64,000 bases of DNA from an uncultured Fibrobacterota bacterium (GCA_963729895.1 CAVSQB010000027.1:40761-104760); one strand, 5' to 3'; positions 15,001 through 21,000 are shown, numbered from the stretch's first letter. Numbers: made by a program.

Positions 15001-18000
15001 GCGGCGGCATGCGGAAGGGTGAGCGTTTCGCTTTCCGCCTTCTTGTCGGCGCGCGAATGCTCGGCCGTAAAGAAATAGTCGACGGAACCGTCTTTGTAGT
15101 CGTCGGGAAAGAAGAGCTGGAGCTGGGCCTGGGCCACGCCGCCGTCCTCATTGGCGTCGGCCTTGTGCTTGAGGTCCTGATCCGCCCCCTGGTAGGTGCA
15201 GAACAGTTTGAACGTTACGCGGGTCTGCGAGGTTTGCTCCTTGTACGCAACGGAGACCTGCACCGCGCATTTGTCGTTGAACCCGATTCCCGCGTCCGGC
15301 GGAACGAATTTCGCGTCCGACAACGTCACGATCGACCCGGCCTTTTCCCCGGCCGGGTCGTCGGCCGCCGCGGGTTGTTGCTTGTCGTCGTCGTGCACGG
15401 GCTTCATGAAAAAGCCCGGGTCGTTGATGTCATGCCAGGGTTCGGACATACGGTTAACGCTCCTTGTAGGGATTGCAGCAAGGGCCCTTGTCTAAAATAC
15501 GAAACGAAAAGAGCTGCTGCCAGTTTCTTGTGATCGGAAGAGGAAGCGGCGGATCACCGGCTAGCGCGGCGTCCGTGGGATGAGGGGCTTGCTGCAGCGG
15601 TCCTGTCTAACCGTGACTACCCGCGAAGACATTATCTGAGATACTTGACGAAACAAATGCCTTCCTTGGCAATTGACAAAGGCAAACACGCGGTGGTCCC
15701 CGAGATGTGTTGTTTTTTCCACAACCTGACGCCGTTCACACTGTACACTTCAAATCCCTTCACATCGGAAGGCACCGGTATTTCCGGGCTGCCGCGGGAA
15801 ACTGCCAGCAACTTCCCGCACGCATCAAAAGGTTTGGTCTGACGATCAGCCCCGGTTTTCCCGGAAACAACAGCCGTGGGAATAGCCGCGATCAGCGAAA
15901 CGCCTTCCCCTGCCAGAAGGAATGCGCCGTGGCCTTCCGGAATTGAAGTTGCCATGGTCGGGCTGCCCGGTTGGTTGCTCCACGGCTGCCCGTAGCCGAC
16001 CCTCCCGTTCGTGTCCACAACCTTGACAAGCGCCGACCATGCCTTGCGGATGGGGGGCACAAATGTGCCCGTATCCAATATCCCCCACGACACGCCGAGC
16101 GCCATTGCGTAGGCGAAAAACGAGGTACAGCTTGACTCGGGGTTTGGAAACTCGGTCGGCTCGAAAAGGCTCGTACGCCACATTCCATCAGGCTGCTGCT
16201 TGCTGCGAATGGTATCGCAGAACATTTTGAATGTCGCCTCCCACGCCGGCCTGTACTTTGAATTCGCCGGCATGTACTTGAGCGCGCGAACAAGGCCTCC
16301 CAGCACCCAGGCGTTTCCCGGGCCCCAGAACTGCGGATAGCCGTCGGCGGTTTTCTTGAAACTTGCCAGCGTGTTCCAGTACCAGAGCTTATACACCGTG
16401 TCCTGGAAATCTTTTTCCGCCCCGCGGAACATGACGTTGAGGGAATCGTAATACATCGGATTTCCGGTAATGTACCCCATCATGGCGAAATCCGGCAGGC
16501 CCATATAGACGGCGTCCTGCCATCCGAAAAGATGATTGACCGGCTGTTGCAGTATTCCGTCGAGTGCGGTTTTTGAGACCTGATATTTGGAGGCATTGGC
16601 CGGAACCGAGTCCACGATATACCGTTCGCAGAACGTCTGGATGCAGCACAGGTTGTCGCCGGTCCCGCCGCCCCACGTCCAGTTCCAGCCGTTTCCCCAC
16701 TTGTCAATGCTGTCGAGCCATTGCTGCTCCTTGGTGGTACGGTAGAGGCCCGTGATGCCGGTCATGATGGTGCCGCCGTCCCAGTTCCTGTTGATGCCGG
16801 CGGCGGTGCCGCCGCCCCAGGTGGCAAAGGCGTATCTCGCCACCTTCCGCATAATGCTCTTGATGCTGTCCGGGCTGAACTCGTCCGCGCTTGCCGCCTG
16901 AGCGATCAACAAAAGTGAGACGAGAATGACGGCCGCCCGAAAACTGCTTCTCATAAGATACCCCTTTGTGCCGTGCAACGGCACATCCTGAATATAATGA
17001 TTTTTCCCGCGCGCGCCGTTGAATTGTTCCATTGCCGGAGGTGCAGGCCGCCGGCGTGCGTGCCCGGGTTGTGCGGGGTCGTATACAAACTGAATACATA
17101 AACTGGTTTTCTTCCCCGTTTTCCGGTGTATCACCTCCGCACTTTATGGTAGATTTATCGTATATGGAAAAGGTCTTCACCTACATTGATTACCGAAAAT
17201 TCCTCCTCGATTATTACAATGAGAAGAAGGCCACCACGCACTTTTTTTCCTACCGGTATTTCTCGAACAAGGCAAGCATCAAGTCGCCGGTGTTCCTCAA
17301 GCAGGTGATTGAGGGCGAGCGCAATCTCACCCTGCAAACCATCGACAAATTCATCGGCGCGCTCAATCTTAACAAAAAGGAAGCCACGTTCTTCCGGCAC
17401 CTGGTCCAGTTCAATCAGTCGACAACGGCGATCGAAAAGCAGGAACACTACAGTGTCATGCTGTCGATGATGGACTACGTCAACGAGCACCGGCTCTCTG
17501 CTGACCAGTATGCCTACTTCGATACGTGGTTCAACAGCGCGGTGCGCGAGCTGATCTGCCTGTACGATTTCCGCGACAACTGGGACCTGCTTGCACGAAG
17601 CGTGCGGCCGGCCATTACGCCGCGCGACGCGAAACAGTCGGTGGAACTGCTCGTGAGGCTCAACCTGGTGAAGAAACAGAAAAACGGCTCCTACCGGCAG
17701 ACCGATTCGGCCATAACCAGCGGCGGCGACGTTCTCTCCCCGGCCAGGCGTTCGTTCAACAGCGCCATGCTCCTGCTCGCCCGCGATTCCAACGAATCCC
17801 TTCCGCCCGACGTGAGGAACATCTCGGGCGTCACCCTGGGCATATCAAAAGCGTGCTACCACGTGCTCATCGCCGAACTCACGGCATTCAAGGAACGGGT
17901 GATCTCTATTGTCAACAGGGATGAGGAAAGCAGCAGGGTATACCAGTTCAATTTCCAGCTTTTTCCGCTGAGTGAAGATACGAACGACATCAAGACGCAC

Positions 18001-21000
18001 GACAAAGGGACCGACCGATGAGAGCGTTTTTTATAGCCGCCGCATTCTGCCTGGCGATTTCCTGCCAGCGAACCGCGGACCTCGCCGGCGGCACCAGTTC
18101 GTCGGAGAACGCAAAAGTCAACGGCACCATAACCGATGCGACGGGCGCTCCGGCGTCCGGCGCGCGGGTGATGCTCATACCGTCCGGCCTCAATCCGGCC
18201 CTGGGCCAGCCTGGCAAGAGCATCGCCCGCGACACGACCAACGGTGCGGGCGCCTATGCGTTCGACGGCATCGCTCCGGGGACGTATAATATCCAGGCCG
18301 CAAGCGCGGCAAACGGCACGTCGCTCCTTATCACCGGAATCGCGCTCAACAGCAAAGACTCCCTTACCGTTCCGCCGGATACGCTCCGTGGAAACGGCAC
18401 CATCATCGTCGTGTTCAAAAATTCCCCCGATTCTTCAGCACTCAATGTTTACATTCCAGGAACCACCTGTTTTGAGACCGTTGCGGCCAACGCCACGTCC
18501 GTTGCGATCGATTCGGTTCCGTGTGGGACCATTCCTTCCGTCCTCATGCAGAAAAACGGAACGTCCGCTCCCGTTCTTGTCGGCAGCAACGTGAGCGTTC
18601 AGCCGTCCGACACCACCTATCTTTCGAATTCGGCGAAAATCTATATCAACACCTCCTCGACAGGCGCCAATGTTTCCCAAACAATAACCCATTTCCCCCT
18701 GCTCGTCCGCCTGGATTCCACGTTTGCGTTCGGCCAGGCCAGGCCCGACGGCGGCGATATCCGGTTTGCAAAACAGGACGGAACGCCGCTCCATTACGAA
18801 ATCGCGCGCTGGGACACCGCTGCCAAACAGGCTGCCGTGTGGGTCTCGGTGGATACCGTGTACCCGAATTCCTACACACAGCATATTACCATGTCGTGGG
18901 GATATTCCACCTTGCAAAGCGCGTCGAACTCTGCGGCGGTTTTCACTACCTCTTTCGGTTTTGCCGGGGTGTGGCACCTCGAAGATGCGGCAACGGCCCT
19001 GGGAACGGCGATGGCGTTTAGAGACGCAACGAACAACGCGGCCTGGGGATCCGACTTCATCGCCGCGGTCGACCGGGACGGCGTTGTCGGGCTGGGTCAC
19101 GATTTCAACGGATCGGATTATATCCTGGTGAGCAAACAGATCCTGTCGATGGCGTCGGGCGACTTTACCATCGCGCTGTGGGCGAATCTTCGCAGGGAAC
19201 GCGGCGCGCTCGTCTCAAAGGACACCGCGACCTCCCAGGATTCGTGCGCGCGGCAGTTGTACCTCGGCGATGCTCCGGGCGATTCAAGCGGCCTGTACCC
19301 CACGTTCGGCGGTAAGGCCTGCGGCACCGCAACGGCGAATGCGGCCGTGTCGCTCAACGCGTGGCATTACCTTGCGTTTACCTGGAGCAACGGATCGAAG
19401 ACGCCGTTGTTCTACATCGACGGCGTGCAAACGGGACTGTCTGCAAACTCGCTCACCTCGGGCTGTCCCGACAATCCGAGGGACAGGATCGTTTTCGGGT
19501 ACGATGTCCAGTACCTGTTCGGCTATCTTGACGAAATACATATTTCCGGAGCCGCACGGTCGGCCGGATGGATAAAACTCTCGTACGAAAATCAGCGGCC
19601 GGGCCAGACGCTCGTCACCATTGTGCAGTAGCGGTCATCCCGGCCGGAAACATTCTTTGACAGTACAAGCCAAGCTACCTGGGGCCGCTCACTTCTGTAT
19701 CTGGGTGACGTGGGTTTTTTGCAGGCAGAGGGGGGTCTGCTGCAGACGACGCATTTGGCTCCAGGTGCTTGTGCTTTTCCCGCCGCCATAGAGGGCGGGC
19801 ATTCTTAAAACGCAAATTGCCGGTACTCGTGCGCTATTCCTGTGCGTGGTTACCGGCTAGAAACCTCTTCCCGTTTGCGGAGGATGCCCGCCTCTTCTTT
19901 CCGCTGCAGCCGTCTCAGCCCCTTTATCGCACCCCGGCCTTTCACGTGGTTGTGGTACAAAGGGTTTCTATTGCGTATATTTCCAACCGGTTCCAACCGC
20001 ATCCGACAGTGCGTTGTTGCCGGCCCGTGCTTCAATGCCGGACTTCGTCGGAATTATTTTGTCGCGAGGCGCCTTGCTTTGGCAGGGGCATTTCCGCACG
20101 TGCTCGATCATCCGAATCCCGATGGTACCGATGAAACCAAATTCCACGATTGCAGCGACGTGCCTTCTGCTTTCCGCTCTGGCGTTCCGCGCGCCCGGCG
20201 TCACCTACAATTTCGTGTATATCAATTTCTTTACCCAGGACGTGGTGGAAAGCGGCCCCAACGCCGTTTTCAATTACTTCCCCTTCAAATTTGCCGACGA
20301 AAAAGCGGCCATCGCCGGCGTGTATCTCAATTACATCAGGAACAATGAGCCGCTCGCAACCGTTCCCATGACCAGAACGGGGGACCATTTTACCGCGACC
20401 GTGTCCGCGCCGGGTGCGGCCGCAGCGGTCGATTTCTACTATACGCTCGTATGCGCGCCGCTTACCGGAACAGGAACCTTCTCCGATGATACGAAATGGT
20501 TCACCAAGGTGATGGGAATCCAGTTCGACCCTGCGCCGGCTTTCCCGCTCATAGTTCAGTCGAGCGGGCGCCTGCGCACCGCCCACGAAAACGAATACTG
20601 GTCGGATCTGTTCCCCGGCGCAGACTATCCGAATACCGTGTACACCCTTACCTTCAAGGACTACGGCGACAGCATAGAGTTCGCCGTTTTCCCCTGCATC
20701 AACAGCAGCAGCCTGGAGCTTCTTGCATTCAACCACAGTGTGGTGGATTCCGTGTGCAAACGCGCGGAGTTCGCCCTTAACATGGGAAGCTCCACCAATT
20801 TCCTCGTTGAGCGGCACACGGGCCCGACGCCCAAATTCCCCCAGGGATCGCCATACGGAGCCGCGACCCCGTGGTACACCGCAACGGTCTCCGCAGTTGC
20901 CTCAGGGGAGCTCGTGGACTTCGAGCTTTTGGTGACCGATGCTGCGGGAACGAACACCTATCCCTCGGTGGTGTACCGGTACTACGTGGGCAGCGGGAAG

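What a model noticed while it worked through the whole genome (the two positions that open the first line are those of the whole stretch)
17164..19631. Nine coupled pairs of a DUF4423 winged-helix protein and a surface lipoprotein
Of 11 full-length DUF4423/TIGR02147 genes in this genome, 9 are followed on the same strand, with start and stop overlapping or at most 11 bases apart, by a gene for a 410-675-aa lipoprotein that begins with a carboxypeptidase-regulatory-like beta-sandwich and often ends in DUF2341 + laminin-G lectin domains (shown here: g02905-g02906), usually beside glycoside hydrolases. I read the pair as the Fibrobacterota answer to a polysaccharide-utilisation sensor: a cytoplasmic DNA-binding protein made in fixed ratio with a glycan-binding surface lipoprotein whose operon it controls. 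DUF4423 is in 95% of Fibrobacterota but 1% of bacteria and has no known function, so this would give the phylum's sig [...]
Evidence so far: Pairs (regulator/partner, gap in bases): g00641/g00642 (-4), g01135/g01134 (-4), g01187/g01186 (+10), g01342/g01343 (+10), g02226/g02227 (+8), g02885/g02886 (-4), g02905/g02906 (-4), g02946/g02947 (+2), g03538/g03539 (-8); exceptions g01204 (106-aa ORF then GH3) and g03146 (147-aa secreted protein, -4). All nine partners start with a signal peptide ending in Cys and none of the 11 regulators has a hydrophobic segment. Partners g01343, g02906, g03539 carry DUF2341+Laminin_G_3; neighbours include GH88, GH2 x3, GH64, GH3, SASA, BNR_4. DUF4423: 280 of 295 Fibrobacterota, 1892 of 189,784 bacteria. 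AlphaFold2 model of g02905 from the 11 paralogs (pLDDT 84): helical N-half, then helix-turn-helix pl [...]
(Added by a program. Inside this text positions count along the whole contig: contig position 40,761 is position 1 of the stretch shown here. "Call 12" and the like, gene names such as g00115 and contig names such as C1 are that model's own, and its searches are not shown. The text may have been shortened before it was handed on; [...] marks where a part breaks off. The agent that wrote the report below was given it as the finding of a first reader that could run no searches.)

Follow-up and report, generated by a model that had tools for sequence, protein, structure and literature searches.

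The report
Self-regulating regulator–lipoprotein gene cassettes
A large, unstudied family of DNA-binding proteins in fibre-degrading Fibrobacterota sits directly in front of exported lipoprotein genes, and appears to switch on its own cassette and some sugar-cutting enzyme genes through short private DNA boxes.

Summary
This genome has 11 full-length TIGR02147/DUF4423 genes. Nine are followed at -8 to +10 bases by a 411-674-aa protein with a signal peptide ending in Cys, and a tenth by a 147-aa one. The pairing also holds in 61 of 70 copies sampled in four other genomes of the phylum and in 40 of 43 copies in three same-genus genomes. This scan has noted the cassette before on other DNA, in at least 8 notes. 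My four paper searches found no description of it.

New here:
- The regulator has an N-terminal XRE/HigA-type helix-turn-helix. Its DUF4423 part is a winged helix plus helices that forms the predicted dimer interface.
- A dyad GTnnnC-N4-6-GnnnAC lies upstream of the regulator genes. It is conserved among orthologs, differs between paralogs, and is centred about 61.5 or 72.5 bases before the inferred transcript start of often leaderless promoters.
- The same boxes, at the same spacing, precede glycoside hydrolase genes: four GH2 genes, GH116 and BNR_4. A further copy of the window's own box lies 72 bases before a GH3 gene, but its nearest -10-like hexamer is 62 bases away.

Best reading: dimeric, self-activating local regulators with private operators. 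The link to polysaccharide degradation is partly supported.

The parts
17081..17097 (+). Candidate operator: 17-bp dyad GTATAC-AAACT-GAATAC, centred 74.5 bases before the regulator's ATG
   Evidence: The core GTAT.CA...TGA.TACA is invariant in 4 orthologous promoters whose flanks have diverged. It belongs to the dyad class found in 54 of 124 upstream regions, against 20.0 +/- 4.2 in shuffles. The pattern has only 3 sites in the genome.
17147..17155 (+). Extended -10 element TGgTAGATT, ending 8 bases before the ATG (inferred leaderless or near-leaderless transcript)
   Evidence: TGnTA(A/G)ATT is kept in all 4 orthologs. A -10-like hexamer ends 5-10 bases before the start codon in 51 of 124 family members, against 9-21 in control windows. 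No RNA data are available.
17164..18021 (+). TIGR02147/DUF4423 regulator, 285 aa: XRE-type HTH (residues 7-91), winged helix (110-187), dimerisation helices and arm (192-276)
   Evidence: family scores; AF2 model, pLDDT 91.1; fold matches, Z 7-8.9; homodimer score 0.88 against 0.00 in controls.
18018..19631 (+). Coupled exported (lipo)protein, 537 aa: signal peptide ending in Cys16, disordered tether carrying the conserved GGTSSSENAKV motif, two beta-sandwiches, DUF2341, and a ConA-like Laminin_G_3 domain
   Evidence: Pfam; AF2 model, pLDDT 86.2, residues 15-29 below 50; lectin-type jelly-roll matches; the motif is conserved in paralogs and orthologs.
20122..22662 (+). Secreted protein with a di-haem oxidoreductase (DHOR) domain; a conserved downstream neighbour, probably a separate transcription unit
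   Evidence: Pfam DHOR 157.3 bits. Present after the pair in 3 of 3 same-genus orthologous loci at 61-68% identity. A 490-base gap separates it from the partner gene, and a TATATT lies at 19977; no dyad of this class was seen by eye.
15632..17134 (-). Divergent GH88 glycoside hydrolase gene (context, not shown to be part of the unit)
   Evidence: Pfam Glyco_hydro_88 166 bits. Conserved upstream in only 1 of 3 orthologous loci within the stretch fetched.
61350..62213 (+). Second TIGR02147 regulator in the window (287 aa)
   Evidence: 158.5 bits; DUF4423 79 bits.
62216..63463 (+). Its coupled exported (lipo)protein (415 aa), gap +2
   Evidence: CarboxypepD_reg 32.8 bits.

Best explanation
TIGR02147/DUF4423 proteins are dimeric one-component transcription regulators, most likely activators. 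The N-terminal XRE-type helix-turn-helix reads a 16-18-bp dyad GTnnnC-N4-6-GnnnAC, whose inner bases differ from paralog to paralog. The DUF4423 part (winged helix, long helices and a C-terminal arm) holds the dimer together.

The dyad sits about 41 or 51-52 bases before a TATAAT-like -10 element. That places its centre near -61.5 or -72.5 from the transcript start, the geometry of class I activators. Each regulator gene carries its own dyad, so it feeds back on its own, often leaderless, two-gene transcript. The second gene, overlapping the first, encodes an exported and probably lipid-anchored beta-sandwich protein that sometimes ends in a lectin domain.

At least some paralogs also drive dispersed genes for secreted glycoside hydrolases through the same box.

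Shown: the pairing, the folds, the conserved dyads and the fixed spacing. Inferred: that the regulator binds the dyad, that it activates, that the transcript is leaderless, that the partner is lipidated and surface-exposed, and that it binds glycan. The input signal is unknown.
For: Pairing:
- 10 of 11 copies here.
- 61 of 70 sampled copies in four other genomes. I fetched 26 of about 39 full-length copies of G086, 24 of about 65 of G104, 12 of 12 of G064 and 8 of 10 of G044.
- 40 of 43 copies in three same-genus genomes.

Fold:
- AF2 model at pLDDT 91.1.
- Residues 7-91 match XRE/HigA/P22 c2 domains (Z 7.0-8.9, rmsd 2.5-3.3 A over 66-82 residues).
- Residues 110-187 match ArsR/SmtB/MarR winged helices (Z 6.4-8.0).

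Dimer:
- Score 0.88 in 3 runs, best of 3 controls 0.00.
- That mark was reached by 20 of 30 proteins solved as pairs of one chain and by 1 of 23 solved as single chains. My own alignment was used, so these counts hold only roughly.
- The runs agree in at least 98% of contacts, and the partner pLDDT is at least 84.
- The interface is residues 123-148 and 192-276. The N-terminal HTH was not among the residues listed as touching.

Operator:
- The window's dyad is invariant in 4 orthologs with diverged flanks.
- The ortholog groups carry different dyads or repeats.
- The dyad class occurs in 54 of 124 upstream regions, against 20.0 +/- 4.2 (maximum 33) in 200 shuffles. A spacer of 5 accounts for 26 of 63 dyads.

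Geometry:
- In -10-anchored promoters, 17 of 23 dyads fall in two narrow bands about 10.5 bases apart.
- Genome-wide, the gap from a perfect dyad to a good -10 peaks at 41 (6 cases) and 51 (5 cases), against 0-2 at other gaps.

Specificity:
- At equal overall identity, pairs with the same inner triplet are more alike in HTH helix 3 (0.33 against 0.23; 0.38 against 0.28; 0.68 against 0.38). The winged-helix helix shows no such difference.

Regulon:
- GTTCAC-N4-GTGAAC has 6 sites, with about 0.3 expected. They are the promoter of the partner-less regulator, 4 GH2 genes, and one site inside a gene. The first five have TATATT 40-42 or 51 bases after the dyad, with unrelated sequence in between.
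- GTAAAC-N5-GTKTAC has 4 sites, with about 1.1 expected: its own promoter, the next gene, GH116 and BNR_4.
Against: - No binding, transcript or expression data exist for any member. No RNA run holds this DNA.
- Foldseek gave no PDB match at E <= 0.001. The Z scores of 7-9 lie in the range the tool calls common for small helical domains.
- Pfam's HTH_3 and HTH_31 did not match the regulator at E <= 0.01.
- 70 of 124 upstream regions show no dyad of the defined class. The second pair in the window shows none, and one ortholog group has direct repeats instead.
- Start codons were chosen by me, and the positions depend on them.
- The helix-to-operator association rests on related sequences and is not a statistical test.
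- Some target promoters may share ancestry. The BNR_4 promoter resembles the regulator's own promoter beyond the dyad.
- The expected site numbers assume equal base frequencies.
- For the window's own regulator, the only extra promoter-side site (C10:3554, before a GH3 gene) has its -10-like hexamer at 62 bases, not 41 or 51.
- Activation, as opposed to repression, is inferred from position alone. One paralog has a second half-site over its start region.
Confidence: 0.6

Rival explanations
1. The surface lipoprotein binds a glycan and acts as the sensor, and the regulator, made with it in fixed ratio, receives that signal. This would be a PUL-like sensor pair.
For: - The start and stop codons of the two genes overlap.
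- 3 of 10 partners carry a lectin-type domain.
- The neighbourhoods are rich in glycoside hydrolases.
Against: - The regulator has no membrane segment, and its model shows no known ligand-binding fold.
- The partner is exported, so the two cannot meet after secretion.
- The signal-peptide cores differ between orthologs, which argues against a conserved peptide signal.
- A regulator that has lost its partner still keeps its dyad and a set of GH2 promoters.
- No SusC- or SusD-type family appeared among 104 neighbouring ORFs.
Confidence: 0.1
2. The regulator is an autorepressor. The dyads are repressor operators, and the cassette is silent until an inducer releases the protein.
For: - XRE-, HigA-, ArsR- and MarR-type proteins, the closest folds, are mostly repressors.
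- In the C10 ortholog group a second GTTCAC half-site overlaps the region just after the -10 element.
Against: - Most dyads lie 41 or 51 bases upstream of the -10 element, outside the core promoter, on one helical face. This is unusual for simple repression.
Confidence: 0.2
3. The cassettes are chiefly a system for varying the cell surface. Each positive-feedback loop gives on/off expression of one variable lipoprotein, with no essential tie to glycans.
For: - Copy numbers reach 40 and 69 per genome.
- Partners diverge faster than regulators in 15 of 17 ortholog pairs.
- Partner architectures are diverse.
- IS elements sit beside several cassettes.
Against: - The boxes of two paralogs sit before glycoside hydrolase genes, and the neighbourhoods are enriched in GH genes.
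- Bistability has not been shown.
Confidence: 0.15
4. The dyads are bound by some other regulator family, and the TIGR02147 protein has a different role, for example in the biogenesis of its partner.
For: Binding was not measured. 70 of 124 upstream regions lack the dyad as defined.
Against: - Each paralog group has its own dyad in its own promoter, conserved among orthologs.
- Dyad type tracks HTH helix 3.
- The protein is predicted to be a symmetric dimer built from two DNA-binding folds.
Confidence: 0.07

Closest known systems
TIGR02147 ('Fsuc_second', NCBIfam paralog model) / Pfam DUF4423 (PF14394)
   Same: Full-length member: 283.2 bits over positions 1-271 of 272, and DUF4423 over residues 107-269.
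   Different: The family has no assigned function. The folds, dimer, operator and regulon proposed here are not in any paper I could find.
XRE/Cro-C1-type regulators and HigA antitoxins (e.g. PDB 6chv, 2r1j, 3trb, 2b5a)
   Same: The N-terminal 85 residues share the fold (Z 7-8.9). A profile of the family weakly matches C.BclI (E = 0.022). Like these proteins, it is the first gene of an autoregulated, overlapping two-gene unit.
   Different: Pfam's HTH_3 and HTH_31 do not match. The protein carries an added winged helix and a dimerisation module. Its partner is a 537-aa exported beta-sandwich/lectin protein, not a toxin. The box lies upstream of the promoter.
Class I CRP-dependent promoters (site centres near -61.5, -71.5, -82.5; recalled from textbook knowledge, not from a call)
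   Same: A dimer-sized dyad sits at one of two positions one helical turn apart, upstream of a sigma-70-type promoter.
   Different: The protein fold and half-site are unrelated. The arrangement GTTCAC..GTGAAC is the inverse of CRP's GTGA..TCAC. Dozens of paralogs each have a private site, and no cyclic-nucleotide domain is present.
Polysaccharide utilisation loci of Bacteroidota (SusC/SusD with SusR, hybrid two-component or ECF sigma/anti-sigma regulators)
   Same: A local regulator, a probable surface lipoprotein and glycoside hydrolases are linked, in another branch of the same superphylum.
   Different: No SusC or SusD was found. The enzymes are dispersed and tied to the regulator by a DNA box rather than by an operon. 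The regulator is cytoplasmic and has no transmembrane sensor.
Kfla_6221 (PDB 4g6q), a structure of unknown function
   Same: Best single match to the DUF4423 part: winged helix plus C-terminal helices (Foldseek probability 0.97, TM 0.49-0.51; Z 6.5 over 147 residues).
   Different: It lacks the N-terminal XRE domain, shares 14-16% identity, and has no known function.

Membership tests
TIGR02147 (NCBIfam) | Whole-protein score above the curated cut-off of 50 bits, matched end to end | tested here: met
   283.2 bits, positions 1-271 of 272. 11 full-length copies in the genome.
Pfam DUF4423 (PF14394) | Score above the gathering cut-off of 30 bits | tested here: met
   98.5 bits, residues 107-269. 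Second window copy 79 bits.
XRE / Cro-C1 helix-turn-helix family (Pfam HTH_3, HTH_31) | Sequence match to the family models | tested here: not met
   No HTH_3 or HTH_31 match at E <= 0.01. The only sequence hint is a profile match to C.BclI at E = 0.022.
XRE / Cro-C1 helix-turn-helix family (Pfam HTH_3, HTH_31) | Five-helix HTH fold | tested here: inconclusive
   Z 7.0-8.9, rmsd 2.5-3.3 A over 66-82 residues to HigA, DdrO, P22 c2 and 3pxp. The tool warns that Z under 8 is common for small domains.
Bacterial lipoprotein (signal peptidase II substrate) | Signal peptide with a lipobox: Cys preceded by a small residue (G/A/S) | tested here: inconclusive
   A Cys follows the hydrophobic core in 10 of 10 partners here. 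The -1 residue is G/A/S in 4 of 10 here and 21 of 52 in the genus, against 58 of 64 in four other genomes. The window partner reads LAIS|C. No dedicated predictor was run.
Bacteroidota polysaccharide utilisation locus | Adjacent SusC-like TonB-dependent transporter and SusD-like lipoprotein | tested here: not met
   No TonB-dependent receptor or SusD/RagB family among the 104 neighbouring ORFs scanned against Pfam.
RRNPP-type peptide-sensing regulators (XRE HTH + TPR domain, adjacent exported peptide) | C-terminal TPR-like peptide-binding domain | tested here: inconclusive
   In the model the C-terminal part is a winged helix plus long helices, with the best matches to ArsR/MarR and 4g6q. The partner is a 537-aa protein, and its signal-peptide core is not conserved among orthologs.
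Type II toxin-antitoxin (HigA-like antitoxin with toxin) | Small cytoplasmic toxin encoded beside the HTH antitoxin | tested here: not met
   The partner has a signal peptide and an all-beta, lectin-type architecture.
Class I activator-dependent promoter | Dimer site centred near -61.5 or one helical turn further upstream | tested here: inconclusive
   The spacing to the -10 element is 40-42 or 51-52 bases. Transcript starts are inferred, not mapped, and contact with RNA polymerase cannot be tested here.

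The most novel reading that the evidence does not exclude
Fibrobacterota replace the operon-based polysaccharide utilisation loci of their Bacteroidota cousins with a dispersed, box-coded network. Ten to seventy paralogous TIGR02147 activators per genome are each locked by positive feedback to one surface capture lipoprotein. Each is wired through a private 17-bp dyad, read by a tunable XRE helix, to its own set of secreted glycoside hydrolases. If so, the regulator's helix-3 residues and the dyad's inner triplet form a readable recognition code that predicts each regulon from sequence alone.
Probability: 0.3. Interest if true: 0.85.

Novelty: new variant of a known kind. 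Interest (0 to 1): 0.7.

Why it matters
Fibrobacter and its relatives are among the most effective fibre degraders known. The passages I read of the F. succinogenes genome paper (PMC3079729) state that few recognisable regulators lie near its cellulase genes, so how these genes are controlled is an open question.

The reading proposed here gives the phylum's signature paralog family a concrete, testable function. It names a defined DNA box and predicted target genes, and the predicted targets include four GH2 genes, a GH116 and a BNR_4 gene in this genome, with a GH3 gene as a weaker candidate. The regulons could then be read from sequence in hundreds of genomes, most of them uncultured. The family would also supply a set of orthogonal regulator and operator pairs.

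Tried and rejected
- RNA evidence: no RNA holder is listed for window 16800-19800. All 10 runs listed are DNA-type metagenomes, so I did not lay reads.
- Scan of genome contigs with the 81-row alignment: the call failed because the alignment has no stretch conserved enough.
- Generic inverted-repeat test (7-base arms, up to 1 mismatch): too permissive, at 74 of 81 regions against 61.2 +/- 3.9 in shuffles. I replaced it with the GT...AC dyad test.
- Simple promoter and terminator scan of 16800-20400: no convincing terminator directly after the partner gene, only a weak one at 19751-19768. The scan's stricter promoter rule missed the regulator's promoter.
- Remnant of the lost partner after C10:22407: no tblastn hit.
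- A regulator next to the orphan partner-like gene C11:38963-40618: none found.
- A dyad of the window's type before the DHOR gene: none seen by eye.
- Crude genome-wide search for the post-Cys motif: the set of candidate signal-peptide ORFs (1232) is far too loose. Only the contrast is usable: 6 of 8 recognised partners fall among the 20 motif-bearing ORFs.
- Toxin-antitoxin, chaperone and RRNPP-style readings were considered and dropped for the reasons given in the membership tests.
- The clostridial neurotoxin binding-domain rows in the fold search of the partner reflect the shared ConA-like jelly roll only (9-16% identity). I draw nothing from them.

Full report
**1. The observation**

The finding's coordinates are window coordinates.
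- ORF 17164-18021 (+) encodes a 285-aa protein. It matches TIGR02147 end to end (283.2 bits, cut-off 50) and DUF4423 over residues 107-269 (98.5 bits, cut-off 30).
- Its stop overlaps the ATG of ORF 18018-19631 (+), 537 aa, which carries CarboxypepD_reg, DUF2341 and Laminin_G_3.
- The window is G000:C27:40761-104760 in a genome of 4.41 Mb and 41 contigs.
- The genome holds 14 TIGR02147 matches: 11 full-length and 3 N-terminal fragments.
- By my own ORF reading, 9 of the 11 are followed at -8 to +10 bases by a 411-674-aa ORF whose N-terminus is a hydrophobic stretch ending in Cys.
- A tenth is followed at -4 by a 147-aa ORF of the same kind. One (C10:22407) has no such partner and is followed by a GH3 gene.
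- DUF2341 + Laminin_G_3 occur in 3 of 10 partners. CarboxypepD_reg is above its cut-off in 7 of 10.
- A second pair lies in the window at 61350-62213 and 62216-63463.

**2. The pairing holds beyond this genome**

TIGR02147 is present in 112 of 121 sampled genomes of the phylum and in 0 of 14 control genomes. Copy numbers reach 40 (G086) and 69 (G104).

I fetched flanks for part of these: 26 of about 39 full-length copies of G086, 24 of about 65 of G104, 12 of 12 of G064 and 8 of 10 of G044. They were picked down the score list and include tandem arrays.
- In 61 of the 70, an ORF with a signal peptide ending in Cys starts within -37 to +20 bases of the regulator's stop. One of the 9 misses could not be judged because the fetched stretch ended there.
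- In three genomes of the window's own genus the figure is 40 of 43, or 42 of 43 within 110 bases.
- Source labels on relatives of the partner protein name Chitinivibrionales, Chitinispirillaceae and Fibrobacterota.

This scan has noted the same cassette before in other genomes, in at least 8 notes. My four paper searches gave one table row for a Bdellovibrio DUF4423 protein and nothing on function.

**3. What the regulator is**

An AlphaFold2 model built from 81 family members has mean pLDDT 91.1. A search of about 48,000 solved chains splits it in three:
- Residues 7-91 match XRE/HigA/DdrO/P22 c2 helix-turn-helix domains: Z 7.0-8.9, rmsd 2.5-3.3 A over 66-82 residues.
- Residues 110-187 match ArsR/SmtB/MarR winged helices: Z 6.4-8.0.
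- Residues 193-252 form long helices.

Foldseek gave no match at E <= 0.001. Its best rows were 4g6q, an unknown-function winged helix with C-terminal helices, and C.BclI. A sequence profile hits C.BclI only at E = 0.022, and Pfam's HTH models do not match. The fold assignment is therefore reasonable but not strong.

A homodimer prediction passed:
- The score was 0.88 in three runs, and the best of three controls was 0.00.
- The mark was reached by 20 of 30 proteins solved as pairs of one chain and by 1 of 23 solved as single chains. My own alignment was used, so these counts hold only roughly.
- The runs agree in at least 98% of contacts, and the partner pLDDT is at least 84.
- The interface is residues 123-148 and 192-276, that is, the DUF4423 part. 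The N-terminal HTH was not among the residues listed as touching.

**4. The operator**

Orthologs of the window pair in three same-genus genomes keep the regulator at 81-84% identity and the partner at 61-67%. Their upstream regions have diverged except for two elements:
- a 17-bp dyad, GTATAC-AAACT-GAATAC, at window 17081-17097;
- an extended -10 element, TGnTA(A/G)ATT, at window 17147-17155, ending 8 bases before the ATG.

The other ortholog groups each keep a different repeat:
- GTAAAC-N5-GT(G/T)TAC
- GTTCAC-N4-GTGAAC
- GTTTTC-N5-GAAAAC
- CGTTC-N9-GAACG
- CTTAC-N5-GTAAG
- direct GTTCGCAA repeats in one group

Across 124 regulator genes from 8 genomes, a dyad GTnnnC-N3-9-GnnnAC with at least 5 of 6 complementary positions occurs in 54 upstream regions. 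In 200 dinucleotide-preserving shuffles the figure is 20.0 +/- 4.2, with a maximum of 33. A spacer of 5 accounts for 26 of the 63 dyads.

At equal overall identity, regulators that share the inner triplet are more alike in HTH helix 3 (residues 38-50). The values are 0.33 against 0.23, 0.38 against 0.28, and 0.68 against 0.38. The winged-helix recognition helix shows no such difference. These pairs are related sequences, so this is a pointer and not a test.

**5. Promoter geometry**

- A TAnnnT hexamer matching TATAAT in at least 4 of 6 positions ends 5-10 bases before the start codon in 51 of 124 genes, against 9-21 in equally wide windows further upstream.
- A Shine-Dalgarno-like word is present in 17 of 124 genes, and never in a gene that has such a hexamer. 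Many of these genes are therefore probably leaderless.
- Anchored on that hexamer, a weak TTG appears 23 bases upstream, which is a sigma-70-type layout.
- In these anchored promoters, 17 of 23 dyads fall in two bands. Their centres lie 49-52 or 59.5-60.5 bases before the hexamer, roughly -61.5 to -64.5 and -72 to -73 from the inferred start.
- In the whole genome, the gap from a perfect dyad to a good -10 element peaks at 41 (6 cases) and 51 (5 cases), against 0-2 at other gaps.

This is the layout of class I activator sites. I know that from textbook work on CRP, not from a call. I find the fixed-distance box here, but the promoter looks sigma-70-like.

**6. Targets beyond the cassette**

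- The box of the partner-less regulator, GTTCAC-N4-GTGAAC, has 6 perfect sites in the genome, with about 0.3 expected.
  - One is its own promoter, four lie 110-396 bases before GH2 genes, and one lies inside ispG.
  - The first five have TATATT 40-42 or 51 bases after the dyad, with unrelated sequence in between. The ispG site has none.
  - Only 1 of 14 one-mismatch sites has such a hexamer.
- The box of the paralog just upstream of the window, GTAAAC-N5-GTKTAC, has 4 sites, with about 1.1 expected.
  - They are its own promoter, the gene after its partner, the GH116 gene whose 3' part is window 135-2264, and a BNR_4 gene on another contig.
  - All four have a -10 element 40-41 bases after the dyad.
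- The window's own box has 3 sites, with about 1.1 expected, and 0 for the pattern read backwards.
  - They are its own promoter, one site inside a gene, and one 72 bases before a GH3 gene and 291 bases from a divergent lipoprotein gene.
  - The spacing at the GH3 site (62 bases) does not fit the two main classes.
  - For the finding's own pair, self-control is well supported. A wider regulon is only a candidate.

**7. The neighbourhood claim**

- The nine pair-centred loci outside the window (166 kb, 86 ORFs) hold 13 glycoside hydrolase ORFs in 7 loci: GH81, GH116, GH64, GH16, GH3 (two), GH2 (four), GH31, an alpha-1,3-glucanase and GH12. An eighth locus has SASA esterases and BNR_4.
- Nine random loci (171 kb, 83 ORFs of 250 aa or more) hold 1 GH ORF in 1 locus. 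That one is a GH2 gene carrying the GTTCAC box.
- By locus, 7 of 9 against 1 of 9 gives a one-sided Fisher probability of about 0.008. I computed this by hand, and the loci are few.
- The hydrolase genes are mostly divergent or convergent to the pair.
- In the orthologous loci, GH88 is kept in 1 of 3. The DHOR-domain protein gene downstream (window 20122-22662) is kept in 3 of 3.

**8. The partner**

- The model (pLDDT 86.2, 49-row alignment) has a disordered stretch at residues 15-29, then two beta-sandwiches, DUF2341 and a ConA-like jelly roll.
- Its best structural matches are lectin-type domains: the trans-sialidase lectin domain, and AbnA domain 4 at TM 0.66.
- The disordered stretch holds a motif right after the Cys. 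Here it reads LAGGTSSSENAKV. In Fibrobacter-like genomes it reads C-S-D-D-K-V-A-G-G-T-x-E.
- The motif recurs in most partners and is nearly invariant among orthologs, while the signal-peptide cores differ.
- In this genome, 6 of 8 recognised partners fall among only 20 motif-bearing ORFs in a loose set of 1232.
- I read the motif as a sorting or tether signal of the mature protein, by analogy with the export signal of Bacteroidota surface lipoproteins. That analogy is recalled from memory and untested.
- Partners diverge faster than regulators in 15 of 17 ortholog pairs.

**9. How the pieces fit**

The regulator that lacks a partner here has 85%-identical orthologs in two sister genomes that do have a 554-557-aa partner. 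A partner-like lipoprotein gene stands alone at C11:38963-40618. The regulator can therefore function, and keep its regulon, without an adjacent partner. This argues against the partner being its sensor.

The simplest account is that the partner is the regulator's first and most constant target. The overlap then reflects co-translation from a leaderless message, not signalling.

**10. Verdict**

The sensor role of the lipoprotein is unsupported. What signal the regulators respond to remains open.

Noticed in passing
Partners in G000 and loci L093-L136 (same genus), compared with L012-L071: In the window's genus, the residue just before the invariant signal-peptide Cys is the canonical G/A/S in only 21 of 52 partners. 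Elsewhere R, K, D, E, H, Q, N, Y and L occur. In four other genomes of the phylum it is canonical in 58 of 64. Either the lipobox is relaxed in this genus or some partners are not lipidated.
   Followed up: partly
G000:C10:22407-23246 (L005) and G000:C11:38963-40618: The one regulator without a partner has 85%-identical orthologs that carry a 554-557-aa partner. No remnant of that partner lies after it here. A partner-like lipoprotein gene (49% identical to those partners, with the same post-Cys motif) stands alone on another contig beside IS-like ORFs.
   Followed up: partly
G000:C3:191398-191724, C33:51857-52180, C17:29575-29841: Three short ORFs of 96-129 aa match only the N-terminal HTH part of TIGR02147. 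The one on C33 is directly followed by an ORF whose N-terminus resembles, by eye, a transposase that scored DDE/DUF772 in another locus. That ORF was not scanned, so an IS insertion is only a guess. Similar short forms occur in G044 and G104.
   Followed up: no
G000:C2:95342, C3:174174, C9:194087, C10:1384, C18:30040, C28:242281: GTTTTC-N5-GAAAAC has six perfect copies, with about 0.3 expected. Five of them have a -10-like hexamer 41-42 or 51-53 bases away. This box sits in the promoters of the G039 and G117 orthologs of regulator C9:200462, but not in the own copy, which lies 276 bases from a contig end. The genes downstream of the sites include a BNR/DUF6242 protein and unannotated secreted proteins.
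   Followed up: partly
G000:C15:57098, C22:147873, C34:27480: A third box class, GTTACA-N6-TGTAAC, has TATATT 51-52 bases downstream. It lies before a secreted protein with sub-threshold CBM6 and T9SS-tail matches, and before one with sub-threshold GH64/thaumatin matches. At the third site an integrase gene lies between the box and any target.
   Followed up: partly
window 22073-24787 (-) against 20014-22662 (+): A 904-aa ORF with no Pfam match overlaps the 3' end of the DHOR-domain gene by about 590 bases on the opposite strand. At least part of it is probably not a gene.
   Followed up: no
window 26266-26757 (+) and 28156-29763 (-): A 163-aa protein with sub-threshold XRE-type HTH matches, and a GAF/sigma-54 activator next to an ammonium transporter gene (30656-32281).
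   Followed up: no
L015 and L019 (G086), L037, L039, L043 (G104): Cassettes occur in head-to-tail arrays of two to four units. In one array the regulators carry a long leader with an AGGAGG ribosome site instead of the leaderless layout.
   Followed up: no
L001:7212-8729 (-), directly after the partner of C9:200462: An IS-type transposase gene (DDE_Tnp_1_6, DUF772) sits immediately downstream of this cassette. It is followed on the same strand by a Kelch-repeat protein gene.
   Followed up: no
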